DNA of 61,136 nt, taken from an uncultured virus (IMG/VR IMGVR_UViG_3300050132_000502) (taxonomy: Duplodnaviria > Heunggongvirae > Uroviricota > Caudoviricetes). Position 1 is the stretch's first letter. Each line of letters starts with the position of its first letter. The notes under the pieces are model-generated. The model did no database searches. It was given only the letters and a program-made list of their open reading frames with translations, and was not told the DNA's origin. This document shows, in pieces, positions 25,372 to 61,136 of the stretch. The stretch lies in the IMG/VR virus record IMGVR_UViG_3300050132_000502; one strand, 5' to 3'. The translations under genes were made by a program, and so were the position numbers.

Positions 25372-26271
25372 CTAGCCGATGAGGTCGTAGTGCTCGTAGC
25401 CCGATATCTCGGCGGGTCCGTAGAGGTGAGCGTGTGGCCCGTGAAGAGAAGCGTGACCAGAAATCCTGGCTTCGTCACCCACGGTCGCTCCATCAAACAC
25501 ACCCGCGTGCTGGAAGACCTTGGCACTACCGTAGATGTCGGACCCATCGGATACCGTGGCGAATCCACTGACCGACGCGTTCTCGCGAACGACACTCTTG
25601 TTGAGCACCCGCGCTTCCTTCGCCACCACCGCGTGATCTTGGACGGTGGAGTCATGGACGAGCGCATTGTCGGTGACGATGGCGTCGCCGGAGATGATCG
25701 ACTGACCAGTCACTCGGGCGTTCGCCGTGACCTCTGCCGCATCACAGACCTTGGCGTCTTGACCGACGAAGGCCGTGTTCTCGACGAACGCGGTGTTCGC
25801 GACCCAGCCTTTTCCGTTGATGTGCTGACGTGCGGGAACAGGTCCGTTACCGAAGTCGAAGTGTGCCCCATCGAAGGCTCCGAACTGACCAAGGACTTGA
25901 CGAATCTCAGAAACCACGTCGCCTCGACCTTCGCCACCAATATGCCACGCAAACTCTTCTAAGGGTCGTTGGTCTCGGTCGTCGAAGTCGTAGATCGTGG
26001 CGACACCCGCCGGGGTATCGAGATACCACATGGCGGTGCTCTTGTCTCGGTCGTCACTCTCGTCGTCGAACTGCGGCGGGCCAAAGACTTGCACCAGTTT
26101 GGCGTACGTGGTTTCGACGTTGCCGACCAGACTCGTGCCGTTGACTTGATCGTACGAAACCGCCGAGAATCCTTCGGGCATGACGTGCGTAGCCAGGTCG
26201 ATGCCGTCGGGCTTGCGGTCTTCCGCGAACTGTCCTCCGACTGGGGTGCCCTTGGGCTGACGTGTAGTCAT
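25372..26271 (-). CDS. Leader-tagged protein: RQPKG..GGQF leader + phage-type middle domain + hexapeptide beta-helix
   Basis: Starts MTTRQPKGTPVGGQFAEDRKPDGIDL after a GAAGGAG RBS. C-terminal [AV]xVxxxA hexapeptide repeats. Confidence 0.8.
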   Translation of the reverse strand: MTTRQPKGTPVGGQFAEDRKPDGIDLATHVMPEGFSAVSYDQVNGTSLVGNVETTYAKLVQVFGPPQFDDESDDRDKSTAMWYLDTPAGVATIYDFDDRDQRPLEEFAWHIGGEGRGDVVSEIRQVLGQFGAFDGAHFDFGNGPVPARQHINGKGWVANTAFVENTAFVGQDAKVCDAAEVTANARVTGQSIISGDAIVTDNALVHDSTVQDHAVVAKEARVLNKSVVRENASVSGFATVSDGSDIYGSAKVFQHAGVFDGATVGDEARISGHASLHGPHAHLYGPAEISGYEHYDLIG

Positions 26272-26292
26272 GTGGTCTCCTTCACTCTTCAC

Positions 26293-26301
26293 TATGGGTG
26301 C
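26293..26301 (-). promoter_or_regulatory. GCACCCATA motif upstream of a leader-tagged gene
   Basis: The identical 9-mer occurs at 32252-32260 and 38772-38780, each just upstream of a leader-tagged start. Confidence 0.6.
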
Positions 26302-26387
26302 GACTTCACCAGAAGTAGAATCGTCCTATTGGGCATGTTGGGGAGAGGGCATAGAAGATGCCGTGGTGTCCTCTGTCTCTACCCTAA

Positions 26388-26891
26388 CTACGGGTGCGAA
26401 CGGCTAGAGCGCCAGCGACCGAAGTGCCCTGAGGGAAAGAAATCATCGACGTATTCGCTCTCCAGTTGAAAGCCGAACTTGGCTGCGAGTATCGCCATCT
26501 CGACGTTGCGACACGCGATCTCGGTCTCTATCGACGTGACGAAAAATGATTTGCACCACTCCATGCTCCTTGCTATGAGCGATGAGCCCACACCTTCTCC
26601 ACGAACCGAGCAGTAGAGACCCCCGAAGTGAGCACGATGATCCCCTAGCAAGGTCACGTACGCAGTACCGAGAAGTCCGTCAACGTCATCACTCTCGACA
26701 ACCAGAACGTGCGTGCGTGCACCGTCGTTGATTCTTTCGAGCACCTTGGACGACGTGGCGTTAGCGGTCCGCCATCGATTGAGTTCCTCTGACGTCCCCT
26801 CGGTACCGACGCCACTGGCGGACCCCGCAAGGATCAACGTCGAGATGGACTGAGCGTCAAGGACCGTTGCTGGTCGAACGTGATGCTCCAC
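26388..26891 (-). CDS. GNAT-family acetyltransferase
   Basis: VRPATVLDA...RGEGVGSSL (motif A)...N..A...KFGF. Confidence 0.75.
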   Translation of the reverse strand: MEHHVRPATVLDAQSISTLILAGSASGVGTEGTSEELNRWRTANATSSKVLERINDGARTHVLVVESDDVDGLLGTAYVTLLGDHRAHFGGLYCSVRGEGVGSSLIARSMEWCKSFFVTSIETEIACRNVEMAILAAKFGFQLESEYVDDFFPSGHFGRWRSSRSHP

Positions 26892-26893
26892 CT

Positions 26894-28249
26894 CTAGCCC
26901 GTGTAGGTGACAGTGAAACTAGTGCCGTCGTATGGTCCGGGTACCGAAACAGGAACGCCATTAATGACGCCGTTGAGCGTCACCTCCCAAGCGTCATTAT
27001 CGGGAAGTACACCATTCGGAGTTACCTTGAGATTGGTGAAGGTCACACTCCCGTAGTTGGGAAACGCCTCTAGCGAATTCGTGGTCGCGCTCGTGACATC
27101 TTCTTGAATCCACTCTGCCGTATCTCCACCTGAGTACGAGTCGTTGGTCGCGTAGCCCTGGATACTGCCTACTGCATCGTCGGTCGAGATGTTGACGACC
27201 TCCCACGCATCTCCGGCGACAAACTCACCCGCGAGACCAGTGGTGGTGTCTTCGAGCAGTGTGACCCATTGACCATTCTCATAACCAACTCCCGCAATCA
27301 TGGAGTCTCCGGCGCTGACGGGGAAGTTCGAGAACGACTCACTGTGATTTGGGGTCATCGGATAGATTTCCCAAAATCCGTAATTCTCTTGAACGCCACC
27401 GACACACTCTTCGTTGACTCCAGTTTGGATCAGCGCACTGTCAATGCCACCTATCCCAACCCATGTTCCGGTTGACCCGTTAGGAGTCGCCGCGCAGTTC
27501 AGAGTCGGCACCGTGAAGTCACCGGATACCAACGTCGCTGGTCCTCCAGTTGGAAGCACGTAGCCGGACCAGTTCGACGAAGTTGTTCCAGTGAACCCAC
27601 TAGTCGGTGTCGTCGCGGTCCACTGCGCGTAGAAGGTGGCGCTCGTCGTGAAGTCCACCACCTCGCCATCAGTGAAACTCGTGCCACTTCCATTCGCCGA
27701 CGTGTTCCATCCGCTGAAGGTGTACCCGGTCTGAGTGAAGGTATTGATGGTCAATGCTGTCGAGGTGTCTACCGTCTCGATCTCGGGAGCCATGATCCCG
27801 ATGCCGCCATTGGCGTTGAAGGTGATGGTTGCCGTTGTGCCGGTCGTTGTCGTCGTAGGCGGAGTAGTCACGGGAGCGGTCGGGGTGACCGAAGCCGACG
27901 GAGCCGAATAGGTGCCTCTTCCGAACTTGTTGACTGCCGCGACCGAAAAGCGGTAGCCAACTCCGTTGGGCAAACCCGGTATGGAGCACCGTGTCCCCGC
28001 GCAGCGATGGATGGCTGCGTTCGTGCCGAGTTCCTTGACGTAGTAAACGGTGATCCGCGAGTCGCCACTGGAGGCTGGCACGCTCCAGGTCACGGTGGCG
28101 GAGTTGTCGCCCGCTACTGCCCTCACGTCACGAGGAGCACTGGGCTTTGCTGCGGTCGCTGCGGACGACACGGTGGAGAAGGCGAAGAGTCCGGCGCAAG
28201 AGATCGCCACCGTGATGGTCAGCCTGCTGAGAAGGTGATGTTTCATCAC
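26894..28249 (-). CDS. Secreted G1-family glutamic peptidase with FN3 and InlB B-repeat domains
   Basis: Signal peptide. FN3 (PSAP...VTWSVP..G.S.ITVY). ITFNANGG...TGYTFSGWNT. SSNWSGY, WVGIGG, LIQTG, TAEWIQE. Confidence 0.85.
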   Translation of the reverse strand: MMKHHLLSRLTITVAISCAGLFAFSTVSSAATAAKPSAPRDVRAVAGDNSATVTWSVPASSGDSRITVYYVKELGTNAAIHRCAGTRCSIPGLPNGVGYRFSVAAVNKFGRGTYSAPSASVTPTAPVTTPPTTTTTGTTATITFNANGGIGIMAPEIETVDTSTALTINTFTQTGYTFSGWNTSANGSGTSFTDGEVVDFTTSATFYAQWTATTPTSGFTGTTSSNWSGYVLPTGGPATLVSGDFTVPTLNCAATPNGSTGTWVGIGGIDSALIQTGVNEECVGGVQENYGFWEIYPMTPNHSESFSNFPVSAGDSMIAGVGYENGQWVTLLEDTTTGLAGEFVAGDAWEVVNISTDDAVGSIQGYATNDSYSGGDTAEWIQEDVTSATTNSLEAFPNYGSVTFTNLKVTPNGVLPDNDAWEVTLNGVINGVPVSVPGPYDGTSFTVTYTG

Positions 28250-30596: not shown

Positions 30597-31199
30597 TCAC
30601 TTCGTCGAGGTTCCTCTCTTGATGTTCGTGTCGCCACCAAAAATAACTTTTCCCTTGCCGATGGCCTTGCCGTGAACCTTGGCACGGTCTCGGGTTTCAG
30701 CGTCTTCGAGAATCATGGCGTCGTCGTAGACCTGAGCGTTTCCGTAGACGTGTCCCGCATTAGCGACCCGTGCCGAACCGTAGATCATGGCGTTGTCATC
30801 AACCTGTGCAAAACCTTCCACCACAGCATCGTCGAGCACTTGCGCACTGCCGCTCACTTTGGCGTTGTAGGACACCGTCGCCCTGTCGGATACTTCAGCG
30901 TTACCCGACACCGTGGCGGAGCCGACAATGTGTGCTGACCCGCGCACGAGGGCGTAGTCGAGAACCTTGGCATTGAGACCGACCGTGGCGGTTGGTGCGA
31001 CGAGAGCCGTAAGCGCCACGAAGCCACCCAGCGACCCGTCGGGATTGTTGTGTCGCCGTCCTTCATAGGTGTGCAACTCGAACACCAATTCCTCAATCGG
31101 ATTGGTGTTCTCAGACGTGAGATCGGGACCGTCGGGATGATGAGTCTCGGCGAACTCTCCACCCACGGGAGTGCCTTTCGGTTGACGTGAGAGTCTCAT
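30597..31199 (-). CDS. Leader-tagged hexapeptide beta-helix protein
   Basis: MRLSRQPKGTPVGGEFAETHHPDGPDL, then VxGxAxVxDxA repeats. ATG overlaps the upstream TGA. Confidence 0.8.
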   Translation of the reverse strand: MRLSRQPKGTPVGGEFAETHHPDGPDLTSENTNPIEELVFELHTYEGRRHNNPDGSLGGFVALTALVAPTATVGLNAKVLDYALVRGSAHIVGSATVSGNAEVSDRATVSYNAKVSGSAQVLDDAVVEGFAQVDDNAMIYGSARVANAGHVYGNAQVYDDAMILEDAETRDRAKVHGKAIGKGKVIFGGDTNIKRGTSTK

Positions 31200-31888
31200 G
31201 CCCGTTCCCATCGTGCTCCGTAGACATCAACGCCACCCGTGATCCGAAAGTGAAGAGGCGTCAGCGAGCCATCCTCTTCGGTCCGGTATCGCTGCACCGT
31301 TCGGTATCCGCCACTGCCGTTCATGATGTCGTCGAGACTGGCATCCGGGTCGGATTCAGACTCATCGAAATACTTCGTCACCTCGTGCACCTCGTCGTCG
31401 GTGAGTTCTTGGTTGAGTCGAACCTTGATGGCTGCGCCGCCCGTGTACTTTTCGGTCGTCACGCTGAAGGTGACCTCGGGGAAGTTCTCCTTGAGAGCCG
31501 CTCGCACCATCTTGGCGGTGTCGGTGGCCGAGACGTCTTCGCGAGGATTGATCTTCTGCCCCGGCTCGGGCGCTTTGACCCGTCGCGATGCCTCGTACTC
31601 GGCGAGTTTCTTCGCATCCATGAGTGATGAACGATGGCCGACTACCTTGCCGCCAATCCACACCACATACGCGTAGCCAGACTCACTACGAAGAGAACTT
31701 TTGATCTCCCTCTTTCTGATGGAGACGAGCAATCCGTTGACTCGACCACCGTCCCACACGGTGCCACTGGATAACTTGACCCACTCGATTTTTGGGGTCT
31801 CGGGATCAGTCAAGTCGGTGCCCTCGGGCTTGCGATCTTCAGCGAACTGTCCGCCGACGGGAACTCCTTTTGGTTGACGATTGGTCAC
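31196..31888 (-). CDS. Leader-tagged protein with a C-terminal LPD29-like (large polyvalent protein-associated) domain
   Basis: MTNRQPKGVPVGGQFAEDRKPEGTDL. SATDTAKMVRAALKENFPEVTFSV...YTGGAAI resembles LPD29. Confidence 0.75.
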   Translation of the reverse strand: MTNRQPKGVPVGGQFAEDRKPEGTDLTDPETPKIEWVKLSSGTVWDGGRVNGLLVSIRKREIKSSLRSESGYAYVVWIGGKVVGHRSSLMDAKKLAEYEASRRVKAPEPGQKINPREDVSATDTAKMVRAALKENFPEVTFSVTTEKYTGGAAIKVRLNQELTDDEVHEVTKYFDESESDPDASLDDIMNGSGGYRTVQRYRTEEDGSLTPLHFRITGGVDVYGARWERA

Positions 31889-31890
31889 AA

Positions 31891-32242
31891 TTATCTCCAG
31901 GCCGCGACCACAAGATTACGGTGCACGAGTGCGTCGTAGGTGACCTTCTGTTCGTCCTCGATCCAGGGGTATGAGCCTGAATGGTGACGGCTAGCGATAC
32001 AGACGCCGTTGCTGTAGACGTGATAGTTCCCGTTGAAGATTTTGCCGTCTTGCCAACCACCCGTCATCTCACCATCGAAAGCGGTGAAGCCATTTCCTCG
32101 ACACATCTTCAGGTCTTCGACGATGGCTTCGACGTCTTCACCGAGGTCGACAGGACCAGATTGGAGGGGGACCAGATTCGGGCTTGCGATCCTCCATGAA
32201 CTGCCCACCCTTCGGCGAACCCTTTGATTGGCGTTTGCTCAT
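31891..32242 (-). pseudogene. Leader-tagged gene split by a 16-bp duplication/insertion
   Basis: MSKRQSKGSPKGGQFMEDRKPE is in one frame and the body is in another. GGACCAGATT occurs at 32153-32162 and 32169-32178. Removing 16 bp gives ...KPESGPVDLGEDV in frame. Confidence 0.7.
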
Positions 32243-32251
32243 GTCTTTAGT

Positions 32252-32260
32252 TATGGGTGC
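32252..32260 (-). promoter_or_regulatory. GCACCCATA motif heading the three-gene leader-tagged operon
   Basis: Ends 9 nt upstream of ATG 32242 (leaderless-type spacing). Confidence 0.6.
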
Positions 32261-32325
32261 AACCACATCGATGGACTGAATGGTACTTTTGACCACCGCC
32301 ATTGTGTGGTTTTCACTAAGGGAGA

Positions 32326-32814: not shown

Positions 32815-32882
32815 CCGTTTTCGGTGCACCAATTCGGTTGATGCTGATGGTATTTTTGCGTCACCACTCACAAAGGAATTTG

Positions 32883-33347: not shown

Positions 33348-33511
33348 GTCTCTGAGTAAGTAGGAAATCCATCACCAAACCACAATAAGAAGCACACCAT
33401 AACCGACGTCAATGCACTAACCGCATAGCAATGAAGTTCTCTCCAGAAACGTTTCGCGGTAATTATGTTTAACTCTGTAGAGCCATCATGTAACTCAACC
33501 CGATTTAGTTT

Positions 33512-34081: not shown

Positions 34082-34170
34082 TGTCAACTCCAGAATTGAT
34101 GGAAGAACCATCTTCCACACCAACCAGTCATTACGTCAAGAAGAAATCAAATCTGCATGGATATGCATCA

Positions 34171-35328: not shown

Positions 35329-35335
35329 GAGGTGT

Positions 35336-37290: not shown

Positions 37291-38748
37291 TCAAGAAGAA
37301 ATTAACCCGCGCAACATCACCAACGCTTCAGCCTCAGTCGTCACCACCCCGTCCAACTGTGCGTCGTAGACGGCTCCGAGGTATTCCTTAAACCGAACCC
37401 CTGGTTCAAGTCCTAGAGCAATGAGGTGGCGTCCATTCACAAGACCTTTCGGTGGCCCGTCGCGTAGGTCAAGGTTCTTCACTCGCTCGCTGAACGCGTC
37501 GATCTTGTCGAAGGCTTCAGAGTTCGCCAACGGTGGTCGCCCGCCGGAGTCCGCTCTCGACAACTGTGCGAGGAGATCGAGTCGCGGCACTTTGGTGGAG
37601 AGTCGTCGGATGGCCTTGTCGGTCGTCAGCGTTACTGGAGCAAGGTGGTGTTCAACAAGTGGTGTTACTTCATCCGTCAGTCGCAACTGTCCGAGTCGCT
37701 TTAAGAGTGACTGGGTGAGGGGCACTCCCGCCTCCTCGTGACCGTGGGAGCGGAACCGTCCGTCGAAGAACTTGGTGGTGTTCGCTTTTCCGAGATCGTG
37801 ACACATCGCCGCCACAGCCACCACGAGGTCGTCGTGCTCGTCACCGATCCGGTGTGCGTCCGCATAGTCAAGGACGTGCGCCGTGTGTACGAAGACATCC
37901 CCTTCGGGGTGCCATCCCGCGTCTTGCTCGACACCACGGAGCGCAGCCACCTCGGGGAAGACGTCGATCCAACCGATGTTGTTGAGCGCGTGCAACGCCG
38001 TGCCGGGGGACTGTGACTGAAGGATGCCGACCAACTCACCCCACACTCTCTCGGGTGGGAGGTGCTCCGCGAGCGGTCGCATGTTTTGACAGAGATCGAC
38101 GGTGCTCTGGTCAATGTCGAAGCCGAAGCGTCCGGCGAATCTCGCCGCTCGCAGCGGTCGCAGCGCGTCTTCGCTGAACTTGTCGGAGACGTGCTTGATG
38201 ATCCCCGCACGGAGATCAGCCTCGCCGCCGAAGGGGTCGAGGAGTTCTCCGGTGAGAGGGTCGAGACCCATTGCGTTGATGGTGAAGTCGCGTCGGCTCG
38301 CGGCGGTCTCGAAGTCGAGGTCTTTGTCCGCCCTCACGTCGAAGTCGGTGTGCTTAGAGCCGGTCACCTCCTCGGTCCGGGGAAGCGCCAGGTCGATCAC
38401 ATCCGCCGATCCCGGCACCTTGACCTTGAGCACGGAGAAATTCGCGCCGGTCACGTCAAGCGAAAACTTGTTCGCCACGATCTCGTGGACAGTCTCCAGG
38501 TCGAGGCCCGCGACTTCGAGGTCGAGATCGTGGCTGGGGAGTCCCAGCAGCATGTCGCGGACGGAGCCGCCGACCACGGTGACCGACCCGCCGGACTCGT
38601 GGAGGTCGGTCACCAGAGTGTCGAGCGTGGCCTGAGTCGAGCGGTCGAGCGGGAGCCGGTGCCCAAGGCTGAGACCCTCGGGGTGGCGGAACTCGGTGAA
38701 GCGGCCACCGGTCACAGGGTTGCCCTTAGGCACTCTCGGTCGGTCCAC
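37291..38748 (-). CDS. cca: CCA tRNA nucleotidyltransferase/poly(A) polymerase family with HD domain, carrying the N-terminal leader tag
   Basis: VGGSVRD..LG...DLDLE, RRDFTINA, EDALRPLRAARF, ERV, HPEGDVFVHT, CHDLGK. GTG at 38748 follows AAAGGAG and gives MDRPRVPKGNPVTGGRFTEFRHPEG. Confidence 0.9.
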   Translation of the reverse strand: MDRPRVPKGNPVTGGRFTEFRHPEGLSLGHRLPLDRSTQATLDTLVTDLHESGGSVTVVGGSVRDMLLGLPSHDLDLEVAGLDLETVHEIVANKFSLDVTGANFSVLKVKVPGSADVIDLALPRTEEVTGSKHTDFDVRADKDLDFETAASRRDFTINAMGLDPLTGELLDPFGGEADLRAGIIKHVSDKFSEDALRPLRAARFAGRFGFDIDQSTVDLCQNMRPLAEHLPPERVWGELVGILQSQSPGTALHALNNIGWIDVFPEVAALRGVEQDAGWHPEGDVFVHTAHVLDYADAHRIGDEHDDLVVAVAAMCHDLGKANTTKFFDGRFRSHGHEEAGVPLTQSLLKRLGQLRLTDEVTPLVEHHLAPVTLTTDKAIRRLSTKVPRLDLLAQLSRADSGGRPPLANSEAFDKIDAFSERVKNLDLRDGPPKGLVNGRHLIALGLEPGVRFKEYLGAVYDAQLDGVVTTEAEALVMLRGLISS

Positions 38749-38771: not shown

Positions 38772-38780
38772 TATGGGTGC
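38772..38780 (-). promoter_or_regulatory. GCACCCATA motif upstream of the leader-tagged cca gene
   Basis: Third identical copy (reads GCACCCATAAT). Confidence 0.6.
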
Positions 38781-44701: not shown

Positions 44702-47158
44702 TTGAGACTCGCGTTCGCAGCAAAGACAGCAGCATCGACGCAGGTTTTCACTCTCGCTCGTTCATCATCGGCGACACCAGAACGTGATGAAGCCATTCAG
44801 CGAAGCGGCGCATTCGGTCGGGCGGTGAACGATGCGACCGGCAAGGGCGGGACGGTGACGTTGCTCACGGTGCGCGATCTTCACAACATCACGTCGTACG
44901 TTTTGACTCCGGGCCAAGGCATCGAGTCGCACATCGTGACCACGCTCTGCTCGGCGATTGGGGCGAAGGCGTTGGTCCCGGCGGAGAAGATTCCCGAACT
45001 CGGCGACGTCAATTATCTCGGATGGCTGAACGCGAGACCGAGCGAGAGCGCGAGCGTGGCGACGCAGTCTGGCGGCGATCAGTCCGAGGTGGCGATCCTT
45101 CTTTCACGGATCATGCAGCCCGGTTCGTGGGTGGCGATGACCTTGCGAGCGCCGACCAAGGGCGAGATCAAGAACACCCGTGAGTGGTTCGACTACCGAC
45201 GAGATGGCGCGGTCACCCACTACTCCAAGAGTCCCAACACGGTCGTCGCGTCACTCATCGCCGGGGGCGCGAGCCAGTCTGAAGTGGACACTCTGCTCAA
45301 CCAGATCGTCTCGGTCATCCCCGGTTTTGACGTGGACGTCGAGGCGGGCAAGAACCATCGCGGCCTCCCTCTGGTGCCGTCGATCATCGCGACCTTGGTG
45401 GTCGGAGCCGGAGCCGGAGTCGCGACTCATCACTGGATCGAAGGGCTCGGAGCGGGGGTGGTTATCCTCGTCGGCAGTTGGTTCAGCCGCCACGCGCCGA
45501 CCGCCAACCGGACCTGGGAGCGCGAGATCGACGAGGCCCTCAAGACCAACGAACTTCCTCGGCCCCGGACCCGGAACATCCCTCCGAGGTCGCCGGTCAA
45601 CCGCAAGGTCAAGCAGGACGACGGCACCGAGCGCGAGGTCAAGCACGGCGGGACCTATCCCCTCGCGGCTTCGTCACTTCTCCTGGCCCCGGCGATGACC
45701 ATCGGCCTAGTGAGCCCGCACGCGAGCGCGGCGGCAGCGGTCTCCGAGACTCGGATGCCCTCGGTGGCGTTGCTCGACGACATCGGTCCCTTGGTCGGTG
45801 ACGCGAGACCGGACGACTCGGGAACCATCAACGCTCCCGCCCATCTCGACGCCGCCGAGTCGTATCAGGGGGTCTTCATCTACGGGACGCCGGGGTCCGG
45901 CAAGACGGTGGCCGTCCAAAATCTGTGGGCCTGGAACACCCTCGAACGCACCCGGCCCTCGGGCAAGTTCGGTCGACCGGGAGCCAAGAACACCATCATC
46001 GCCTTCGAGTCCAAGGGTGAGGGAGCGGCGGTCTACGCCGAGTGGTCTGAGGCGTTCGGCGACCACTGCGTCATGATCGAGGTGGGGGACAAGAACTCCC
46101 CGGCCATCGACCTGACCGACCCCAAGTTGCCACCCAAAGAGCGAGCCCAGTTCTTCGTCTCGGCCATGAAGTACGCCTTTGGAGACGACGCCATCGGGGA
46201 CCGCAGTTCCGAGACCCTCCAGAATGTACTGACCGCCGCGATGTCCTTCCCGCCCGAAGCGTTCGCCACGACCGGGATGGCGAACCCCAGTTTCCTCGAC
46301 ATCACCCACGCCCTGCTCGGTGGGGTCGGTGACTACGAAGACGCCAAGGCGGTCGCCGCCGCGATGACCACTTACTACAGCAGGGTCGACGACTCGGACC
46401 CCAAGAAGTCTGTGCTCGGTGAGGCGATCAAGGGTCTTGGGTTCCTCTACGGATCGAGCGTGACGGTCTCGGCGTGGCGACAGAACACCGAGGCCCCGCG
46501 CAACAAGATCAACCTCCTCCAGCAGGTCGCCCACTGGTGGTCACCCTCGCGGCCACGCGGCACCTGGTCGGACATTCTGGTCAACCACCGAGCGGTGGTC
46601 ATCAACACCGGGATCACGACGTCGGGGGTTTTGGTCGACGAGAGCGTGTCCGAGAAGGTGGCCGCGATGATCGCCTACGCCCTCAAGGGGTCGATCCAGC
46701 GTCACTGCTCGAATTGGCAGAAGGAAGGCAGATCGGTGTCGATCTTCGCCGACGAGTTGGCGTTGCTCGCGCCCTCCAGCGCAGAAGTGATCGAGTGGCT
46801 CCGCGAGTACGGACGCTCCTACGGAGTTCGTCTCGTTCTGGCGACGCAACGTCCCGGCCAACTCCAAGACCAACTTCGCGCCACCTTGCGCGGGTACGGC
46901 ACCACCATGATCTTCCAGCAGAACGACCCCAAGATCATTGCCGAAGCGATCTCGGACCTCACGCTCGGTGGCGAAGTCTGGAACTCGGCGGACATCTCCA
47001 ACATGCCGCGCTTCCACGCGATCTTGAGCGCGACGTCGGGTGGACAGCGCCAGCCGCCGGTCTCCATTCAAGCCCTCTACTGGGCCAACGAGTATCGCCA
47101 GTTCGCCGTCGATCAGGGGTACGTCGCACCAGGTTTTAAGCACAAGGTGGTGGGATGA
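44702..47158 (+). CDS. VirD4/TraD-like (type IV coupling protein/HerA-FtsK superfamily) ATPase
   Basis: Two internal TM helices. GVFIYGTPGSGKT, AFESKGE, SIFADEL, GRSYGVRLVLATQRPGQL. Confidence 0.8.
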   Translation: MRLAFAAKTAASTQVFTLARSSSATPERDEAIQRSGAFGRAVNDATGKGGTVTLLTVRDLHNITSYVLTPGQGIESHIVTTLCSAIGAKALVPAEKIPELGDVNYLGWLNARPSESASVATQSGGDQSEVAILLSRIMQPGSWVAMTLRAPTKGEIKNTREWFDYRRDGAVTHYSKSPNTVVASLIAGGASQSEVDTLLNQIVSVIPGFDVDVEAGKNHRGLPLVPSIIATLVVGAGAGVATHHWIEGLGAGVVILVGSWFSRHAPTANRTWEREIDEALKTNELPRPRTRNIPPRSPVNRKVKQDDGTEREVKHGGTYPLAASSLLLAPAMTIGLVSPHASAAAAVSETRMPSVALLDDIGPLVGDARPDDSGTINAPAHLDAAESYQGVFIYGTPGSGKTVAVQNLWAWNTLERTRPSGKFGRPGAKNTIIAFESKGEGAAVYAEWSEAFGDHCVMIEVGDKNSPAIDLTDPKLPPKERAQFFVSAMKYAFGDDAIGDRSSETLQNVLTAAMSFPPEAFATTGMANPSFLDITHALLGGVGDYEDAKAVAAAMTTYYSRVDDSDPKKSVLGEAIKGLGFLYGSSVTVSAWRQNTEAPRNKINLLQQVAHWWSPSRPRGTWSDILVNHRAVVINTGITTSGVLVDESVSEKVAAMIAYALKGSIQRHCSNWQKEGRSVSIFADELALLAPSSAEVIEWLREYGRSYGVRLVLATQRPGQLQDQLRATLRGYGTTMIFQQNDPKIIAEAISDLTLGGEVWNSADISNMPRFHAILSATSGGQRQPPVSIQALYWANEYRQFAVDQGYVAPGFKHKVVG

Positions 47159-54610: not shown

Positions 54611-55068
54611 TATTTCGGCTCAATGATTCGCACGGTGACGCCACTCTCTTCAAGCAGAGCGAGACTGAAAACGAATTCCCTACCCCATCGGTGGTGCGAA
54701 ATGTTCGGTGCGTACGTGACCAGTGTTGCGGCACCTATTTGAATGATCGCTCTGGAACAAGCAATGCAGGGAAAAAGCGTGGCGTACACGGTCGAGCCTT
54801 CGAGCGGTGATCCCAATCGTGCGGCGTTGAAGATGGCGTTACGTTCAGCGTGCTCGGTCCAGTCAAGTTTGGCTGGCTGTTCGTGGCGCTCGTCGATCTC
54901 GTCATCGATACCACGTGGGAACCCGTTGTAACCAGTTGAGAGAACTTGATTAGCGGAGCCCACGATGATGCAACCGACCTTGTGACGACGATCTTTGCTC
55001 CACATGCCCGTCTGTTCGGCGAGGTTGAGCCAACGCTTGTCCCACTTATCGGTTGATGCAGTATTCAC
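54610..55068 (-). CDS. dCMP deaminase family protein
   Basis: SKD...VGC, TGYNGFPRG, HAERNAI, PCIAC. Confidence 0.92.
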   Translation of the reverse strand: MNTASTDKWDKRWLNLAEQTGMWSKDRRHKVGCIIVGSANQVLSTGYNGFPRGIDDEIDERHEQPAKLDWTEHAERNAIFNAARLGSPLEGSTVYATLFPCIACSRAIIQIGAATLVTYAPNISHHRWGREFVFSLALLEESGVTVRIIEPK

Positions 55069-55652
55069 GACTGATCGCTACTCTTCCACTTACGTTCTTT
55101 GACTTCGGACCAACGATCTTGCAGAATCGTGTGCCACCCAAATCCTTCGGCATCAGCGATACTCATCGTGGCGTAGATGATTTTGGCACAGTATTTAGCA
55201 AGATTGAGGGACTGTCGCTCATTGAGAGTGTTGTCGAGCGAGTAGTCGGTCACCACGTCGGAGAGTTCTCCAACCGAGTGACTGAGTTCCAAAGCGGCGA
55301 CTTCTGACACGGCGTGGGTGAACGGATTGTCCCACGTCGAACCACCGAGTGCTGACAGGCCATCCATTAAGTCGAGTTGGTGATTCGCCGCAAATGCCAG
55401 CACGGTGATGATGACGTCCCCGAGTTCTATCCGCAGTTCACGCGTCCAGTGTTCAGCACCGCCTCGGATGTTCTGATCCCGCTTGACGTAGCACCGGCAG
55501 ACTTCACCAGTCTCCTCCACGATGATGAGTACGTCGATAAGCGTGTGAGGCGGCGACCCGTCAGGTCGAAACTCGCGTTTTTGCCATTCACCGATCTCAC
55601 GTTGAATGTCGAGGAACCACTCGTCACGCCACTTGTAGTACGACTCGTCCAC
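55065..55652 (-). CDS. MazG-like NTP pyrophosphohydrolase
   Basis: EETGE...ELGDV, plus a degenerate second helical repeat. Confidence 0.75.
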   Translation of the reverse strand: MDESYYKWRDEWFLDIQREIGEWQKREFRPDGSPPHTLIDVLIIVEETGEVCRCYVKRDQNIRGGAEHWTRELRIELGDVIITVLAFAANHQLDLMDGLSALGGSTWDNPFTHAVSEVAALELSHSVGELSDVVTDYSLDNTLNERQSLNLAKYCAKIIYATMSIADAEGFGWHTILQDRWSEVKERKWKSSDQS

Positions 55653-55657: not shown

Positions 55658-56665
55658 CTACTTTTTCGGAGTCCAGCGACGAGAACCATCGACCGGCACG
55701 ACGAACTCCTCAGCAAGTTCGGGGTACATTTCTTTGAACGAGTCCATGTCGAATCCCAAACTGTCCTTGGACCTCTTGTAGGTGAGTACGACCTTGCCGT
55801 CGATGATGATTGACTCAGCATCACCAACGATGAGTTCGAGTTTTGCTCGCAAGAGTTTGGCTAACTTCTCCGACGTGTCGGCTATGTCCTTGTTGCTGGC
55901 CCACTGACGGTACAGTTCGGCCTGCTCTCCGTCGAGCGTGATTGATTTGCTCTCAACCTGCTTGGGAAACATCTTGTGGATCGTTTTGAATGTGCTCTCG
56001 CTGGCGTCAATATCCGCAGGTTCGGTCTTGGTTTCGACATTCTCCCAAAAGCCGAATTCCGTTTCGGTCAAGTCTTGAATGTCCTCGGCGTCGTAGGTAC
56101 GAGTACGAACAGTCAATCCTTCGTTGGCGATGAGGGCCGCGTAGGTGACACGGGAGATGCCAGTGACAGCAAAAGCGTGCATCCCTTGAGCCTCGTACTT
56201 CATCGGGATATCGTCGTCATCCCATCCGGCGGTAGACGAAGGGTTCAAGATGCCGACGGCCCGCACGTCGAGAATGGCGACAATGTTGGCGGGCGGCTCG
56301 TTGGACTCACTGAGGTTGTGGACGATCCCGCTTTGAAGGTCGGGGCGGTCACACACGAAATAATCTGAGCGGTACTGCATGAAGTCGAAGTCGGTTGAGC
56401 GAAGGGTGCGAGGCCAGTAGACCACGACCATGTTGCGCTCCTCGGCGTACATCTGTGCGATGGTGCGCTTGAGGTCCTTGCGGGCCTTGGACGCCTTCGG
56501 TCCTGAGTACGGAATTTTGCCGGTCTTCTCGGCCCACACTTCGAGACTGCCCTTGTAGTTGTTCGCGCCCATGATGGCGGACGCATCAAACGCGGTGATG
56601 CCAAGGGGCCTCGGCTTGTCGGGGTCGAAGGTGAGAACCTCGCAGTGCTCGTTGATAGTGGTCAT
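55658..56665 (-). CDS. YqaJ/lambda-exonuclease-family protein with degenerate catalytic motifs
   Basis: GITAFDASAIMG.NNYK..LEVWAEKTG, P.KYEAQ..H..AVTG, FWENV...P. D-V-R appears in place of E-x-K. Confidence 0.8.
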   Translation of the reverse strand: MTTINEHCEVLTFDPDKPRPLGITAFDASAIMGANNYKGSLEVWAEKTGKIPYSGPKASKARKDLKRTIAQMYAEERNMVVVYWPRTLRSTDFDFMQYRSDYFVCDRPDLQSGIVHNLSESNEPPANIVAILDVRAVGILNPSSTAGWDDDDIPMKYEAQGMHAFAVTGISRVTYAALIANEGLTVRTRTYDAEDIQDLTETEFGFWENVETKTEPADIDASESTFKTIHKMFPKQVESKSITLDGEQAELYRQWASNKDIADTSEKLAKLLRAKLELIVGDAESIIIDGKVVLTYKRSKDSLGFDMDSFKEMYPELAEEFVVPVDGSRRWTPKK

Positions 56666-57496: not shown

Positions 57497-57889
57497 TCAG
57501 ACGAGGCGCGCGATCTTTACGGCACGAAGAACGGAGCCCGATGCGACGAGTAGTCCCCAGTCGTCGGGCAATTCACTCTCCTTCACGACGTTCTTGTCGG
57601 TCACGACCAGCCACCAGTAGTCCATGTACCTTTTGATCGATTCTGCCTTCCACGGTTGGCGAAGTTCTACGAGCCAGTCCGCCCGCGAGCATTTGATCTC
57701 GTGCCCGTGGAAGAGAAGTTTCGAGCGCCAGACGTCGAAGGCCACGAAGTCGGCGATATGTGATGCCCCGCCCGTTGAGGTAGGGACGTGTTCCGCGACC
57801 GCGAACCGACGAGCGTTCATCGAGACGAATCCGTAACGGACGTGAAGTCGATGAAGGACGTCCGCCTCACATAACTTTTCGTCAACCAT
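57497..57889 (-). CDS. MmcB-like PD-(D/E)xK endonuclease-fold protein
   Basis: EHV...IADFVA...GHEIKCSRADWL.EL..P.K...DYWWLV...ELP..WGL. Confidence 0.7.
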   Translation of the reverse strand: MVDEKLCEADVLHRLHVRYGFVSMNARRFAVAEHVPTSTGGASHIADFVAFDVWRSKLLFHGHEIKCSRADWLVELRQPWKAESIKRYMDYWWLVVTDKNVVKESELPDDWGLLVASGSVLRAVKIARLV

Positions 57890-58262
57890 GAAACGTCCGA
57901 GAGATGAGATCGTCGTGTCGGTACTCTCTCGCGGTGAGTTCAGAGAAGAGAATGCAACGTTGCTCATCATCAAGCATCGACATGCAACGAAAGCACAGTT
58001 CCCCATCTTCGCAGTGATAGACCGCTCCTCGGTCTGGATCGTGAAGTCCGGTTTCGGAATACTTGCCGCAGAGCCCGTGGAACCGTTCGTAGAGCATCCA
58101 TCCGATCATCGACTCGTTGGTTTCGTCCTGCTCCTCTTGAGTGACCTTCTCGCCGAGTAAGTCTCGATACTCGACCCCGTGTTGGATGTGGACCGACTTG
58201 CCACTCCTCGTTCGAAAGAAGGCGATGTCCTGTCCGTCGGTGATGTAGATGCGTTGGGTCAT
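57882..58262 (-). CDS. Hypothetical protein
   Basis: 126-aa coupled ORF with Cys/His ligands. Confidence 0.55.
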   Translation of the reverse strand: MTQRIYITDGQDIAFFRTRSGKSVHIQHGVEYRDLLGEKVTQEEQDETNESMIGWMLYERFHGLCGKYSETGLHDPDRGAVYHCEDGELCFRCMSMLDDEQRCILFSELTAREYRHDDLISRTFHG

Positions 58263-59548: not shown

Positions 59549-59810
59549 TCTTCACCTTCGGTTGGAAACTGATGATGTGTTCGAAACTGGTCAACTGCCA
59601 CCTATTGCGTCCACGAAACTTTCGGGCAACGATCACGTTCTCGTTGTAGATGGAGCGTCGCACCCATCCTTCGAATCGAGCCGGGGGAAGTCCGCCCATT
59701 CCACGCTCGTAGACCAAGGTGCCTAATATCTCGTCCGTCCCGATGGCAATGCGATCAGAGTGATCGTTGCTGGCGACGATGGTCGTTTGATCTTCGACCA
59801 TCAGCCACAC
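59535..59810 (-). CDS. Hypothetical protein
   Basis: 91-aa ORF in an operon. Confidence 0.45.
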   Translation of the reverse strand: MWLMVEDQTTIVASNDHSDRIAIGTDEILGTLVYERGMGGLPPARFEGWVRRSIYNENVIVARKFRGRNRWQLTSFEHIISFQPKVKNEEV

Positions 59811-60205
59811 AACTGTCGGTCAGAGGAGTAGTCCCAACTCGCGCCGTGAATTCTGACACCGCCAGTGATGCGGAAGTCGAGCGGGGTGAGCGAGCCATTT
59901 TCTTCGGCTTGGTAGCGACGAACGGTCCGATATCCACCACTGCCGTTCATGATGTCGTCGAGGCTGGCGTTCGGGTCGGGCTCACGCTCGTCGAAGTAAC
60001 GGGTGACCTCACGCACTTCGTCTTCCATGAGTTCGTGATGAAGAGAGACGACGATGCTCGCGCCGCCGACATACTTGTCGGTGACGACGCTGAACTTCAC
60101 ATCGGGGAATCGCTCCTTGAGCGCGAGTCGTACCATCTTGGCGGTGTCAGTAGCACTGATGTTCTTCGTCTCGTTGATCCTGAAGTTTTGCATGTTGACT
60201 GGCAT
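59801..60205 (-). CDS. Stand-alone LPD29-like domain protein (untagged paralogue of 31196-31888)
   Basis: SATDTAKMVRLALKERFPDVKFSV...ASLDDIMNGSGGYRTV.RY..EE.GSLTPL.FRITGGV is nearly identical to the C-terminal half of 31196-31888. Confidence 0.8.
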   Translation of the reverse strand: MPVNMQNFRINETKNISATDTAKMVRLALKERFPDVKFSVVTDKYVGGASIVVSLHHELMEDEVREVTRYFDEREPDPNASLDDIMNGSGGYRTVRRYQAEENGSLTPLDFRITGGVRIHGASWDYSSDRQLCG

Positions 60206-60233
60206 CGGAGACTCCTTTTCGCTTCTGGTCAGT

Positions 60234-60262
60234 TTCTAACCCCAAGCGTGCCAGGTAGCCCC
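60234..60262 (-). promoter_or_regulatory. Bipartite promoter-like motif GGGGC-N14-GGGGTTAG
   Basis: Intergenic, upstream of the untagged LPD29-like gene. Confidence 0.6.
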
Positions 60263-60275
60263 AGTCGAGAGACGT

Positions 60276-61136
60276 CTATTTGGCCTTATCGTGAGCGCGT
60301 AGATTGCCGCCAGAAGTGATCGAGACCCAGGCATTGCATTCGGTGCATCGGGTGCCTCGTGTTCGACCACCTACGTAGCGACCGCTCGAAGGACACCTCT
60401 TTTCGGCCTTGGCCTCTTTGTCGAGATCAAACTTGTTGGTGTACTCGACCGGGGCGCTGGGGTAGCAGACAGTGCAAAGGACCGCACCGTGCTCTTTGAC
60501 CGCGTCCTCTTCGTTGAGCCCACTCAAGTCGGGGAGCCAACCAAATCGAGTCTGCTTGCCTTCCTTGTTGCAGGTAGAGCAGTCGAGCGACGAGTGAATG
60601 TGACCGCCGGGGACGAGAAAGAAACGACTCCATCCCTCGTACTGCTTGTTCTCTTCTCGGAACTTGAGTTGCGCGAGATCGAGTTCTTCTTTTGCCTCGT
60701 CGTACTTCTCAAACTCTCTGACGTAGTGGTCGTGGTTGTAGGCCGTCATCTGACCAAACTCTCCGGCATCAAACATCTCTCGAATTCGTTCGGTAGAGGC
60801 GACTTCGTACTTGCCATCGATTCGGATGTACGCGCTGTCGTGCGTTCTCATCTCGTAAGGGACGACGTGGTAGAGACTTGACTTTAGTGCATTGACTTTG
60901 TGCGACTTCTTGAAGACCTCTTCGTATGCGGCCGCAATTTTCGTGTCGGTCCACGATTCCTTTCGGACACCGGGCTTAAACGCACCACACCATCCGCAAC
61001 GACCCGTGTCGTCGTACTGGTGCTGGTCGCTGAACTCGCCCGTGCACCGCGCGACGAGATCGGCACCATCGGGCTTGCGGTCTTCCGCGAACTCTCCGCC
61101 TTTCGGAGTTCCCTTCGACACTCGGTTCTGGTTCAC
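60276..61136 (-). CDS. Leader-tagged Cys/His-rich protein
   Basis: MNQNRVSKGTPKGGEFAEDRKPDGADL, followed by GHIHSSLDCSTC...LCTVCYPSAP and a C-terminal C..SG...CTEC...H. The start codon is at the window edge. Confidence 0.8.
   Translation of the reverse strand: MNQNRVSKGTPKGGEFAEDRKPDGADLVARCTGEFSDQHQYDDTGRCGWCGAFKPGVRKESWTDTKIAAAYEEVFKKSHKVNALKSSLYHVVPYEMRTHDSAYIRIDGKYEVASTERIREMFDAGEFGQMTAYNHDHYVREFEKYDEAKEELDLAQLKFREENKQYEGWSRFFLVPGGHIHSSLDCSTCNKEGKQTRFGWLPDLSGLNEEDAVKEHGAVLCTVCYPSAPVEYTNKFDLDKEAKAEKRCPSSGRYVGGRTRGTRCTECNAWVSITSGGNLRAHDKAK

What the first reader, a model, noticed from the sequence alone, without database searches (positions are those of the whole stretch)
25372..61136. A shared ~25-aa N-terminal leader fused to six largely unrelated cargo proteins: candidate protein-targeting (export/packaging) system
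Seen: six N-termini align. 26271 MTTRQPKGTPVGGQFAEDRKPDGIDL; 31199 MRLSRQPKGTPVGGEFAETHHPDGPDL; 31888 MTNRQPKGVPVGGQFAEDRKPEGTDL; 32242 MSKRQSKGSPKGGQFMEDRKPESGPVDL (after repairing a frameshift); 38748 MDRPRVPKGNPVTGGRFTEFRHPEGLSL; 61136 MNQNRVSKGTPKGGEFAEDRKPDGADL. The bodies differ: two beta-helix proteins, an LPD29-like protein, an unknown, a CCA-adding enzyme and a Cys/His-rich protein. Codons differ between copies, which suggests conservation at the peptide level. The leader has no hydrophobic core and no twin-Arg, so it is not a Sec or Tat signal. Established: phage T4 internal proteins use a short N-terminal capsid-targeting sequence, and LPD domains occur in polyvalent proteins of phages and conjugative elements that are thought to act early in a new host. 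Inference: the leader is a portable address tag that loads proteins into a virion or routes them through the element's FtsK/VirD4 ATPases into recipient cells.
Basis: partly seen in the sequence, partly recalled or inferred. Interest (0 to 1): 0.92.

Follow-up and report, generated by a model that had tools for sequence, protein, structure and literature searches.

The report
Shared start tag on megaplasmid proteins
Six unrelated proteins of a giant actinobacterial plasmid-like element begin with the same floppy 25-residue peptide, which also heads dozens of proteins on related megaplasmids and marks the cargo modules of phage portal and head proteins, so it probably labels proteins that travel or act with mobile DNA, though this is untested.

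Summary
All six minus-strand genes start with M-x(2-4)-R-[QV]-[PS]-K-G-x-P-x-G-G-[QER]-F-x-E-x-[RH]-[KH]-P-[DE]-[GS], and nothing else in the six frames matches. Codons differ, so selection is on the peptide.

The tag is not local. A profile of the six finds 122 protein clusters, 113 with the match at the N-terminus. 163 tagged proteins fall into 99 unrelated body groups. In PLSDB it occurs in only 5 of 72,556 plasmids by tblastn, all 375-440 kb Micrococcaceae megaplasmids. pACHL01 alone has 44 tagged genes, including a DNA ligase, a CCA-adding enzyme and a Fic protein. These elements share the window's NERD, FtsK-like and VirD4-like genes.

The core, PKGxPxGGQ[FW], is a lineage form of a widespread unannotated motif, QPRVPAGNPDGGQW. 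In viral contigs that motif sits after portal or MuF domains and before toxin or enzyme cargo.

Best reading (about 0.45): a portable, disordered header for effector modules delivered or processed with mobile DNA. Recognition, transfer and cleavage are all inferred. A co-fold with the ATPases gave no verdict. No Pfam, NCBIfam, PDB or literature record was found. Verdict: a new variant of a known kind, of high interest.

The parts
26194..26271 (-). Leader MTTRQPKGTPVGGQFAEDRKPDGIDL of gene 25372-26271 (left-handed beta-helix body)
   Evidence: AF2 gives residues 1-54 pLDDT below 50 and no secondary structure in 1-39.
31119..31199 (-). Leader MRLSRQPKGTPVGGEFAETHHPDGPDL of gene 30597-31199 (YdcK-type beta-solenoid body)
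31811..31888 (-). Leader (GTG start) TNRQPKGVPVGGQFAEDRKPEGTDL of gene 31196-31888 (LPD29 body)
   Evidence: A 98% identical copy, P0006, lies on a 331,861-bp contig.
32171..32242 (-). Leader MSKRQSKGSPKGGQFMEDRKPESG of a frameshifted gene. The body continues in another frame as ORF 31891-32208. There is one extra C in the C-run 32166-32170 relative to the intact relative P0057.
38665..38748 (-). Most diverged leader (GTG start) DRPRVPKGNPVTGGRFTEFRHPEGLSL of gene 37291-38748 (CCA-adding enzyme: PolyA_pol head, RNA-binding and HD domains)
   Evidence: The independent profile scores it only 4.2 bits. Its pACHL01 orthologue has a canonical leader.
61056..61136 (-). Leader (GTG at the window edge) NQNRVSKGTPKGGEFAEDRKPDGADL of gene 60276-61136 (Cys/His-rich body, phrog_2433)
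26293..26301 (-). GCACCCATA, a promoter-like 9-mer 22 nt upstream of the 26271 start
   Evidence: 3 exact sites in the window, 0.18 expected, 0 of 100 shuffles with 3 or more
32252..32260 (-). GCACCCATA 10 nt upstream of the 32242 start, which heads the 32242-31888-31199 gene run
38772..38780 (-). GCACCCATA 24 nt upstream of the 38748 GTG start
20610..24260 (-). Large FtsK/SpoIIIE-like ATPase (1216 aa). It is conserved in all tagged megaplasmids. It is a candidate machine, not shown to read the tag.
24705..25298 (-). NERD nuclease-related gene just upstream of the large FtsK gene. The same pair occurs in the pACHL01, Glaciihabitans and Curtobacterium plasmids.
18552..20273 (-). Second FtsK-like ATPase (573 aa, TraB-like), 45% identical to a pACHL01 protein
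44702..47158 (+). VirD4/TrwB-like type IV coupling protein (818 aa). The conserved 453-aa neighbour lies at 48302-49663.

Best explanation
The leader is a portable, intrinsically disordered header peptide for effector-type modules of mobile DNA. Its core is R-x-P-K-G-x-P-x-G-G-[QE]-[FW]. In actinobacterial forms an acidic-Pro-x3-Leu tail follows. Phages place the same core between a virion anchor (portal or MuF) and each enzyme or toxin module. This family of actinobacterial megaplasmids puts it at the very N-terminus of free-standing proteins, about 9% of the genes of pACHL01. I infer that one common partner reads it so that the tagged proteins are handed over, and perhaps trimmed, together with the DNA. 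In the plasmids that partner would be the conjugative DNA-transfer apparatus (VirD4-like or FtsK-like ATPases). In phages it would be the portal or head interior. Shown: the motif, its position, its selection at the peptide level, its portability, its restriction to these elements, and the effector-like cargo. Inferred: recognition, transfer and any cleavage.
For: 1. Six of six window copies, 44 of 44 pACHL01 copies and 113 of 122 database cluster representatives have the motif within about 20 residues of the start.
2. Selection acts on the peptide. The invariant R, G, G, G positions of the 44 pACHL01 paralogues each use 4-5 synonymous codons.
3. Bodies are unrelated. 163 tagged proteins give 99 BLASTP components, 72 of them singletons. 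The folds differ: beta-helix, nucleotidyltransferase, NAD-ligase, Fic, GNAT, pentapeptide repeat, ParB-like nuclease, LPD29, DUF2958.
4. The tag is an add-on. PHROG families align to the bodies only, from residue 56-71 onward. LigA is tagged in pACHL01 but not in the window.
5. Distribution is narrow. Only 5 of 72,556 PLSDB plasmids hold it by tblastn, all Micrococcaceae megaplasmids, with 19 to 40 or more places each. A profile search of three further plasmids added a Curtobacterium megaplasmid with diverged copies. All six carry the large FtsK homologue. pACHL01's largest array (200-229 kb, 18 of 44 annotated genes) abuts its FtsK and type IV coupling genes. An Acidimicrobiales MAG contig of 179,063 bp appears to hold both a tagged protein and the coupling-protein homologue; this is judged only from equal contig length.
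6. Five MuF-fused polyvalent proteins carry 3-4 internal copies of the core, and a sixth long protein with no Pfam family (P0077) carries 6. In IMG/VR the general form gave at least 131 loci. Of 68 host ORFs, 11 have a portal and 3 a MuF domain. In 12 of these 14 the motif lies 20-130 aa behind that domain, often exactly 41 aa. It lies 25-140 aa ahead of RNase, ADP-ribosyltransferase, GNAT, Zeta, topoisomerase IB or lytic-transglycosylase domains. 26 of 81 viral sites are themselves N-terminal.
7. The leader is predicted unstructured, as tethered targeting peptides usually are.
8. Iyer et al. 2017 (PMC5512222, passages read) argue that MuF- and portal-fused and polyvalent effectors are delivered with the DNA. 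LPD29 comes from that set.
Against: There is no experimental datum of any kind. In portal and MuF fusions the anchor domain already fixes the location, so an address there is redundant; a processing or post-delivery role explains those cases better. Two plasmids with the same NERD-FtsK module have no tag: Glaciihabitans NZ_CP043654.1 with 0 candidates, and B. breve pMP7017 with one chance-level hit. pACHL01 has no MuF domain, and no virion gene was seen in the window, so the phage partner cannot be the plasmid partner. From recall, the known signals read by VirD4-type and FtsK-type (type VII) ATPases are C-terminal, not N-terminal. Tagged cargo includes a DNA ligase and a CCA-adding enzyme, which could simply work in the cell that makes them. 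Exporting about 9% of a plasmid's proteins would be unprecedented.
Confidence: 0.45

Rival explanations
1. The motif is a processing or junction site, a 'pre-toxin'-like boundary at which modules are cut from their anchor or from each other by a protease or by self-cleavage. At N-termini only a short propeptide is removed. Delivery is decided elsewhere.
For: The position is constant: between portal or MuF and cargo, and between successive modules of polyvalent proteins. A portal-fused toxin must be released to leave the capsid (inference). Iyer et al. 2017 cite processing of phage P1 DdrB before packaging (passage read). The residue after GGQ is aromatic in all 50 plasmid and window leaders aligned (F or Y; Q is R in the window's CCA-enzyme copy) and is W in the copies seen in MuF polyvalent proteins and in the viral set, whose search pattern required W. 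A cut there would expose a bacterial N-degron (recalled rule, speculative).
Against: No conserved nucleophile or Asn/Asp is shared between the plasmid form (KGTPVGGQF) and the phage form (AGNPDGGQW). No protease is shared by the window and pACHL01. Removing 15-25 residues from free-standing proteins of about 100 unrelated folds has no obvious use, yet the tag is under strong purifying selection there.
Confidence: 0.2
2. The motif is a docking peptide for a common hub inside the cell. The hub could be a host factor (chaperone, protease adaptor) or an element-encoded one (replication, partition or entry complex). The peptide would concentrate or activate each module near the mobile DNA, in the producer cell or after entry. 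It would not itself be a transport signal.
For: One motif per module fits a need of each module, such as refolding or tethering. The core is conserved from phages with the AGNPDGGQW form to actinobacterial plasmids, which suggests a widely conserved partner. Tagged ligase and CCA enzyme could act on the element's own DNA and on tRNA in cis. The Pro-x-x-x-Pro plus aromatic pattern resembles ligands of small peptide-binding domains (inference).
Against: No candidate hub was identified. The best-conserved small shared protein (57497-58006) is widespread on plasmids of many phyla that lack the tag. The tag's tail differs between lineages (KPDGxDL, HxEPxxxL, IDTPxGLL), which argues for lineage-specific rather than universal partners.
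Confidence: 0.2
3. The conservation is at the nucleic-acid level. The shared 5' segment would be a recombination handle for swapping cargo cassettes, or a translation or transcription control element.
For: Three exact GCACCCATA sites lie just upstream of the three visible leader transcription units in the window. pACHL01 leader genes also follow a stereotyped upstream motif.
Against: Third codon positions vary freely at invariant residues. The motif also occurs deep inside long ORFs. In pACHL01 the upstream DNA motif has 224 sites, of which only 30 precede leader genes, so it is a general feature of the plasmid.
Confidence: 0.03
4. The tagged genes are one old paralogous family whose bodies have diverged beyond recognition. 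The tag is not a portable module.
For: Large tandem arrays of tagged genes in pACHL01 suggest duplication. Some bodies are related to each other: components of 18, 8 and 7 members.
Against: The bodies belong to unrelated, well-defined folds (beta-helix, Pol-beta-type nucleotidyltransferase, NAD-ligase, Fic, GNAT) with untagged homologues elsewhere.
Confidence: 0.03

Closest known systems
Polyvalent proteins and MuF- or portal-fused polymorphic toxins of phages and conjugative elements (Iyer et al. 2017, PMC5512222; Jamet et al. 2017, PMC5576092)
   Same: The cargo repertoire is the same: LPD29, DUF2958, Fic, GNAT, ADP-ribosyltransferases, RNases, Zeta, topoisomerase IB. The very same core motif separates their modules. 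They are proposed to be delivered with the DNA (passages read).
   Different: The window's proteins are single-module and free-standing, with no MuF, portal, relaxase or ArdC-N header. The motif sits at the N-terminus. Neither paper describes the peptide. In-text searches for motif, linker, cleav, glycine, short and repeat found nothing relevant. Their figures and supplements were not seen.
Phage T4 capsid targeting sequence on internal proteins IPI-III and Alt (recalled, not checked here)
   Same: A short N-terminal peptide shared by unrelated proteins that are loaded with DNA and injected.
   Different: The T4 peptide is about 10 residues, has a different sequence, acts through the scaffold core and is removed by the prohead protease. 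Here there are no capsid, scaffold or prohead protease genes, and cleavage is unknown.
Junction and marker motifs of polymorphic toxins: VENN of CdiA, DPxGL of Rhs, MIX/FIX of type VI effectors (recalled)
   Same: A short conserved motif marks the boundary before a variable cargo domain. It is found on many unrelated cargos and is tied to one delivery route.
   Different: The sequence, the taxa and the machinery differ. The function of the present motif is unknown.
Sec, Tat and double-glycine (C39 peptidase/ABC transporter) leaders
   Same: N-terminal position, and a Gly-Gly pair as in double-glycine leaders.
   Different: There is no hydrophobic core, no twin arginine and no amphipathic helix before GG. 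No C39-ABC transporter appeared in the window's Pfam scans. Cargo of up to 700 aa is far larger than bacteriocin precursors.

Membership tests
Sec signal peptide | Hydrophobic h-region of about 10-15 residues after a basic n-region | tested here: not met
   The six leaders and 44 pACHL01 leaders are polar and Gly/Pro-rich, with no hydrophobic run.
Tat signal peptide | Twin-arginine motif (S/T-R-R-x-F-L-K) followed by an h-region | tested here: not met
   There is a single invariant R and no RR or h-region.
Phage T4-type capsid targeting sequence | Encoded by a phage with scaffold core and prohead protease; the peptide is removed on maturation | tested here: inconclusive
   No capsid, portal, MuF or protease family was found in the window, and pACHL01 has no MuF. 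The window is only 61 kb of an element of at least 331 kb. Cleavage cannot be tested here.
MuF polymorphic toxins | N-terminal Phage_Mu_F domain followed by a C-terminal toxin | tested here: not met
   None of the six window proteins has PF04233. The motif itself does occur in five MuF proteins among the profile hits.
Polyvalent proteins (Iyer et al. 2017) | 2-15 effector domains in one polypeptide, encoded by a phage or conjugative element | tested here: not met
   Each window protein has one body domain. One is LPD29, a domain defined from polyvalent proteins. They fit the 'solo version' category rather than the polyvalent architecture.
Type IV secretion substrates | Recognition by the VirD4-type coupling protein; known signals are C-terminal or internal (recalled) | not testable with these tools
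   A VirD4-like gene is present. Binding or transfer cannot be established here.
Double-glycine leader peptides | Leader ending in GG, cleaved by a C39 peptidase domain of a dedicated ABC transporter | tested here: not met
   GG is followed by conserved Q-F-A and about 10 more conserved residues, so it is not a leader end. No C39 or ABC transporter appeared in the window scans.
GGQ[FW] header motif (defined here) | R-x-P-[KA]-G-x-P-x-G-G-[QE]-[FW] at an N-terminus or module junction of a mobile-element protein | tested here: met
   Six of six window proteins match. Five of six match a profile built from another element only.

The most novel reading that the evidence does not exclude
The GGQ[FW] peptide is a general 'take me along' handle read at DNA-translocating channels, both phage portals and conjugative FtsK/VirD4 rings. 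On this reading, actinobacterial megaplasmids of this family inject dozens of different free-standing proteins into recipient cells during conjugation, roughly a tenth of their coding capacity. These include a DNA ligase, a tRNA CCA-repair enzyme, Fic enzymes and DNA-mimic-like beta-helices. This would be a protein-delivery system on the scale of a type III, IV or VI effector repertoire. It would use a simple N-terminal consensus signal, and it would occur in Gram-positive soil bacteria where none is known.
Probability: 0.25. Interest if true: 0.9.

Novelty: new variant of a known kind. Interest (0 to 1): 0.72.

Why it matters
Protein transfer during actinobacterial conjugation is essentially unexplored. 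Effectors of phages and plasmids that act before the incoming DNA is expressed are hard to find, because most have no recognisable domain. A 12-residue consensus that flags them would give three things. First, a direct computational handle on hundreds of candidate early effectors and anti-defence proteins. Here 35 of 43 tagged pACHL01 proteins that were scanned have no Pfam family. Second, an easily testable signal: reporter fusions, point mutants and N-terminal proteomics in cultured, harmless Pseudarthrobacter chlorophenolicus A6. Third, a possible portable tag for sending proteins along with DNA. It also links free-standing plasmid proteins to phage portal- and MuF-fused toxins through one motif that no database models.

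Tried and rejected
1. Co-fold of the leader (alignment A5, residues 1-40) with the VirD4-like protein (A4, 330-818) and the large FtsK-like protein (A6, 640-1100): ipSAE 0.00 in two runs, no verdict. It counts neither for nor against binding.

2. My first related-loci scans used a pattern that was too strict (GG[QER]F[AMT]E[DTF][RH][KH]P). Results: viral contigs 0; genome contigs one spurious wrong-frame hit in a Streptomyces genome (L001); metagenome contigs a 1,295-bp copy of the window plus one weak hit.

3. tblastn of short peptides against INPHARED phages gave no match. Queries this short are insensitive, so this says little.

4. The exact-peptide DNA pattern found nothing in IMG/VR. A looser RQPKGxPxGGQF pattern found 3 loci, one ORF family of 425 aa with the motif at residue 76 and no Pfam or PHROG family.

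5. A sample of 301 genomes of the class of a Streptomyces genome had 0 with a match at E <= 1e-3. Only 26 candidates per genome were scored, no positive control lay in the set, and no taxon names were given. This is weak evidence of rarity.

6. Literature string searches found nothing relevant or nothing at all: GGQF; GGQW, GGQFA, PKGTP, GGRW; PRVPAG, DGGQW, EGGQW, GGQWT. Only the held open-access library was searched.

7. NCBIfam has no model over the leader. The PDB sequence search gave only chance matches at E about 1.

8. Phage_Mu_F was not found in pACHL01.

9. I considered the upstream DNA motif as part of a leader 'cassette'. It is specific in the window but plasmid-wide in pACHL01, so it is not part of the tag.

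10. I considered the 169-aa protein 57497-58006 as a candidate reader. It is widespread on untagged plasmids of many phyla, so I rejected it.

11. AF2 of the Cys/His-rich protein gave mean pLDDT 45.7, too poor for a fold search. No fold search was run.

12. The search of earlier findings by place and by sequence returned nothing.

13. I considered and dropped for lack of any test: a 2A-like ribosome skip, a Pup-like or release-factor-like GGQ function, and an AT-hook-like DNA-binding role.

Full report
**1. The observation**

All six genes lie on the minus strand. A simple regular expression for the core, [KR]G.P.{1,2}GG.F, hits only these six places in all six reading frames, and none lies in the first 25 kb.

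An HMM of the six (alignment A1) finds the six and nothing else below i-E 0.01 among all stop-to-stop frames. That test is circular. I therefore built a second HMM from 44 leaders of a different element, plasmid pACHL01. It recovers five of the six window leaders as its top five hits, at 14.1-33.7 bits. The best score in 20 shuffles of every window frame was 9.1 bits.

The sixth leader heads the CCA-adding enzyme at 38748. It has a one-residue insertion and scores only 4.2 bits. It belongs because its pACHL01 orthologue (36% identity) has a canonical leader.

The gene at 32242 is frameshifted. An intact relative, P0057, is 83/86 identical downstream. The window has one extra C in the run 32166-32170.

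The body assignments hold: two left-handed beta-helix proteins, an LPD29 protein, a CCA-adding enzyme, one body without a family, and a Cys/His-rich body that matches phage family phrog_2433 from residue 63 on.

**2. The tag is selected as a peptide, is unstructured, and is an add-on**

Among 44 paralogous leaders of pACHL01 the invariant Arg and three Gly positions each use four or five synonymous codons. The five window copies that could be anchored also differ at third positions.

AlphaFold2 on the 25372-26271 protein (8-row alignment, mean pLDDT 59) gives residues 1-54 a pLDDT below 50, with no secondary structure in 1-39. The beta-helix reaches 80-88.

PHROG families align to the bodies only: from residue 56 of the CCA enzyme, from 63 of the Cys/His protein, and from about 70 or 160 of the beta-helix proteins.

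The NAD-dependent DNA ligase carries the tag in pACHL01 but not in the window. The CCA enzyme carries it in both.

**3. The family**

A profile search of 1.84 billion cluster representatives with A1 gave 122 hits at E <= 1e-3, 20 of them at <= 1e-10. In 113 of the 122 the best match starts within the first 21 residues. Consensus: M-T-[NK]-RQPKGTPVGGQFAEGRKPEGGDL.

I took the hits with an N-terminal motif and a body of at least 40 aa, added the 44 pACHL01 proteins and the six window proteins, and obtained 163 bodies. They fall into 99 single-linkage BLASTP components (E <= 1e-4), 72 of them singletons. The eight long or motif-less hits were left out.

Pfam recognises few bodies: pentapeptide repeats, hexapeptide beta-helix, GNAT, KTSC, DUF7226, DUF6745.

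Four hits (P0007, P0008, P0011, P0030) lie on contigs whose longest is 51,668 bp in each case. This suggests several tagged genes per element elsewhere too.

**4. Where it lives**

The window's element is large. A 98% identical copy of the LPD29 protein is on a 331,861-bp contig. No whole genome is held. Megablast of 20 kb against the phage and plasmid collections finds nothing.

tblastn with a leader finds only Micrococcaceae megaplasmids in PLSDB: 5 of 72,556 records, 375-440 kb, with 19 to 40 or more places each.

In pACHL01 of Pseudarthrobacter chlorophenolicus A6 (426,858 bp, 541 annotated features) the A1 profile finds 48 places at E <= 1 and 44 at <= 1e-3. My own scan gives 44 genes, every one with the motif within about 10 residues of a start codon. 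In the 40-kb stretch next to the transfer genes, 18 of 44 annotated CDS start with a GGQF leader, and one more has an HPRGAAGRF variant. All are annotated 'hypothetical protein'.

Of 43 pACHL01 tagged proteins scanned, 8 have Pfam families: Fic/DOC, ParB-like nuclease, LPD29, DUF2958 twice, DUF7007 and NAD-ligase. The remaining 35 have none.

The window and pACHL01 share a core:
- two FtsK-like ATPases (45% and 33% identity);
- a VirD4-like coupling protein (39%) and its 453-aa neighbour;
- a ParA-like protein;
- the ligase and the CCA enzyme.

A NERD gene precedes the large FtsK gene in the window and in three plasmid families.

The large FtsK homologue occurs in 17 PLSDB records. These include all five tagged megaplasmids and a Curtobacterium megaplasmid with diverged tags such as VASRVPAGVRAGGQFAATLRPDAGEAL. 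They also include a Glaciihabitans plasmid and B. breve pMP7017, which have none. So the tag occurs only in elements of this transfer type, among those I could test, but the transfer module does not require it.

A sample of 301 genomes of the actinomycete class gave no match. Few candidates were scored per genome and there was no positive control, so this is only weak support for rarity on chromosomes.

**5. The link to phages**

Eight of the 122 hits are long proteins whose matches are mainly internal; one of them (P0097) also carries an N-terminal copy.
- Five contain Phage_Mu_F plus ADP-ribosyltransferase, glutamine-deamidase, Zeta or HNH domains. They carry 3-4 copies of forms such as QARAPKGTPIGGQWIDTP or QPRxPKGxPEGGQW between modules.
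- A sixth (P0077) has no Pfam family and carries 6 copies of KHPRGPKGTPAGGDFIEKP.
- A seventh (P0097) has three copies.
- The eighth (P0114) is a low-complexity false hit.

The first 80 loci hold 81 distinct sites, with consensus [KA][KG][FY][NDS]P[DN]QPRVPAGNPDGGQWT.

Of 68 host ORFs of 150 aa or more:
- 29 have a Pfam family;
- 9 have Phage_portal, 2 have Portal_Mu and 3 have Phage_Mu_F;
- in 12 of these 14 the motif lies 20-130 residues behind that domain, and at exactly 41 residues in five of them. The exceptions are L092, where it lies about 470 residues behind, and L101, where MuF is C-terminal;
- the motif lies 25-140 residues ahead of RNase A-like, barnase-like, ADP-ribosyltransferase, GNAT, Zeta, DUF3626 or lytic-transglycosylase domains; in L086 and L097 a topoisomerase IB domain lies several hundred residues further downstream.

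Twenty-six of the 81 sites lie within 60 residues of the upstream stop, so N-terminal versions exist in phages too.

The plasmid-type RQPKGxPxGGQF form is nearly absent from IMG/VR: three loci, all one ORF family, with the motif internal.

**6. What is known**

No Pfam or NCBIfam model covers the peptide. No PDB chain matches it. No paper in the held library contains the motif strings.

For Iyer et al. 2017 I read search passages only. They describe MuF- and portal-fused effectors as delivered with the DNA, describe processing of P1 DdrB, and propose an N-terminal ArdC-N 'header' for conjugative polyvalent proteins. No passage found describes this peptide.

For Jamet et al. 2017 an in-text search for motif, linker, conserved region, cleav, central domain and glycine found no occurrence. 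Figures and supplements of both papers were not seen.

Two earlier reports of this scan on other genomes (e1-5753139, e1-5328016) reached the same reading. They are not independent evidence, but I reproduced their main claims here.

**7. How it most likely works**

Shown:
- a short disordered peptide under purifying selection;
- placement at the front of free-standing proteins or of each module of virion-anchored multi-module proteins;
- attachment to about a hundred unrelated bodies with an effector or anti-defence flavour;
- confinement, as far as tested, to phage-like contigs and to one family of giant actinobacterial plasmids with FtsK- and VirD4-type transfer genes.

Inferred: one partner reads it so that modules are handed over with the DNA, and possibly trimmed.

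I put about 0.45 on this delivery-header reading. I put about 0.2 on a pure processing or junction site, and about 0.2 on a docking peptide for a host or element hub that acts without transport. DNA- or RNA-level explanations and the single-paralogous-family explanation get about 0.03 each.

The main argument against a pure address is that portal and MuF fusions do not need one. The main argument against pure processing is that free-standing proteins do not need releasing, yet they keep the tag under strong selection. A handle that is engaged at the channel, for exit rather than for loading, would fit both, but that is speculation.

The one co-fold allowed gave no verdict.

**8. Verdict**

The finding is real and much larger than the window. 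It is not in the databases or papers I could search, and it is readily testable in a cultured, harmless host. The kind, a shared tag or junction motif on mobile-element effectors, is known. The motif, its N-terminal use on about 9% of a megaplasmid's genes, and its link between plasmid proteins and phage portal and MuF cargo are new.

Noticed in passing
pACHL01 (NC_011879.1; loci L035-L056), whole record: A stereotyped motif, CCG[CT]ACAC, usually as CCGCACACAT-N5-6-CATG, occurs 224 times. It typically ends about 7-12 nt before a start codon. Only 30 sites precede leader genes. It looks like a plasmid-wide promoter or leaderless-start signal for some 200 genes, perhaps read by an element-specific factor.
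   Followed up: partly
window 26293-26301, 32252-32260, 38772-38780 (minus strand): Exact GCACCCATA occurs three times (0.18 expected). Each site lies 10-24 nt upstream of a leader-gene start. The CATA(A/G)T part resembles a -10 box, and at 32242 the spacing would give a leaderless mRNA. This suggests the window's leader genes are co-regulated.
   Followed up: partly
window 32166-32170: The leader gene at 32242 is broken by one extra C in a C-run relative to the intact relative P0057. Whether this is a sequencing error, a pseudogene or a slippery site was not checked against reads.
   Followed up: partly
window 32001-38000: GC drops to 0.49-0.51, against 0.57-0.61 around it. The stretch holds a DUF4379 treble-clef/HNH-type gene (34171-35328), a GNAT (36435-36977) and several orphan ORFs. 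It may be a recent insertion. A second DUF4379 gene lies at 1137-2204.
   Followed up: no
window 26894-28249 (minus strand): A protein combines fibronectin type III, a Listeria-Bacteroides repeat and a Peptidase_A4 (eqolisin-type) domain, which is unusual in bacteria. It is not conserved in pACHL01.
   Followed up: no
homologues of window 20610-24260: Many homologues of the large FtsK-like ATPase are 1,700-2,070 aa long and carry Hint and LAGLIDADG intein domains. Inteins have repeatedly invaded this transfer ATPase.
   Followed up: no
window 39828-43179 (plus strand): A run of NAD-dependent DNA ligase, a NADAR domain protein and a DUF4406/dNMP-kinase fusion. MazG (55065-55652) and a YqaJ-type recombinase (55658-56665) lie nearby. 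This is a phage-like nucleotide and repair toolkit on a plasmid-type element.
   Followed up: no
window 57497-58006 (minus strand): A 169-aa protein with no Pfam family has homologues on 34 PLSDB plasmids, from Arthrobacter, Mycobacterium and Rhodococcus to Xanthomonas and Enterobacter. It is a widespread uncharacterised plasmid protein.
   Followed up: partly
window 60276-61136; alignment A8: The Cys/His-rich cargo has a conserved core, GW[ST]RFFLV-GGH[IV]H-S-DCSTC ... CTVCYPSAPV (two CxxC pairs). It matches phrog_2433, a family of unknown function. The AF2 model was too poor to compare folds.
   Followed up: partly
L197-L199 (IMG/VR), ORF 1978-3255 of L197: A 425-aa viral ORF family with no Pfam or PHROG match carries the plasmid-type RQPKGTPQGGQF motif at residue 76. 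It is the only viral occurrence of that exact form found.
   Followed up: partly
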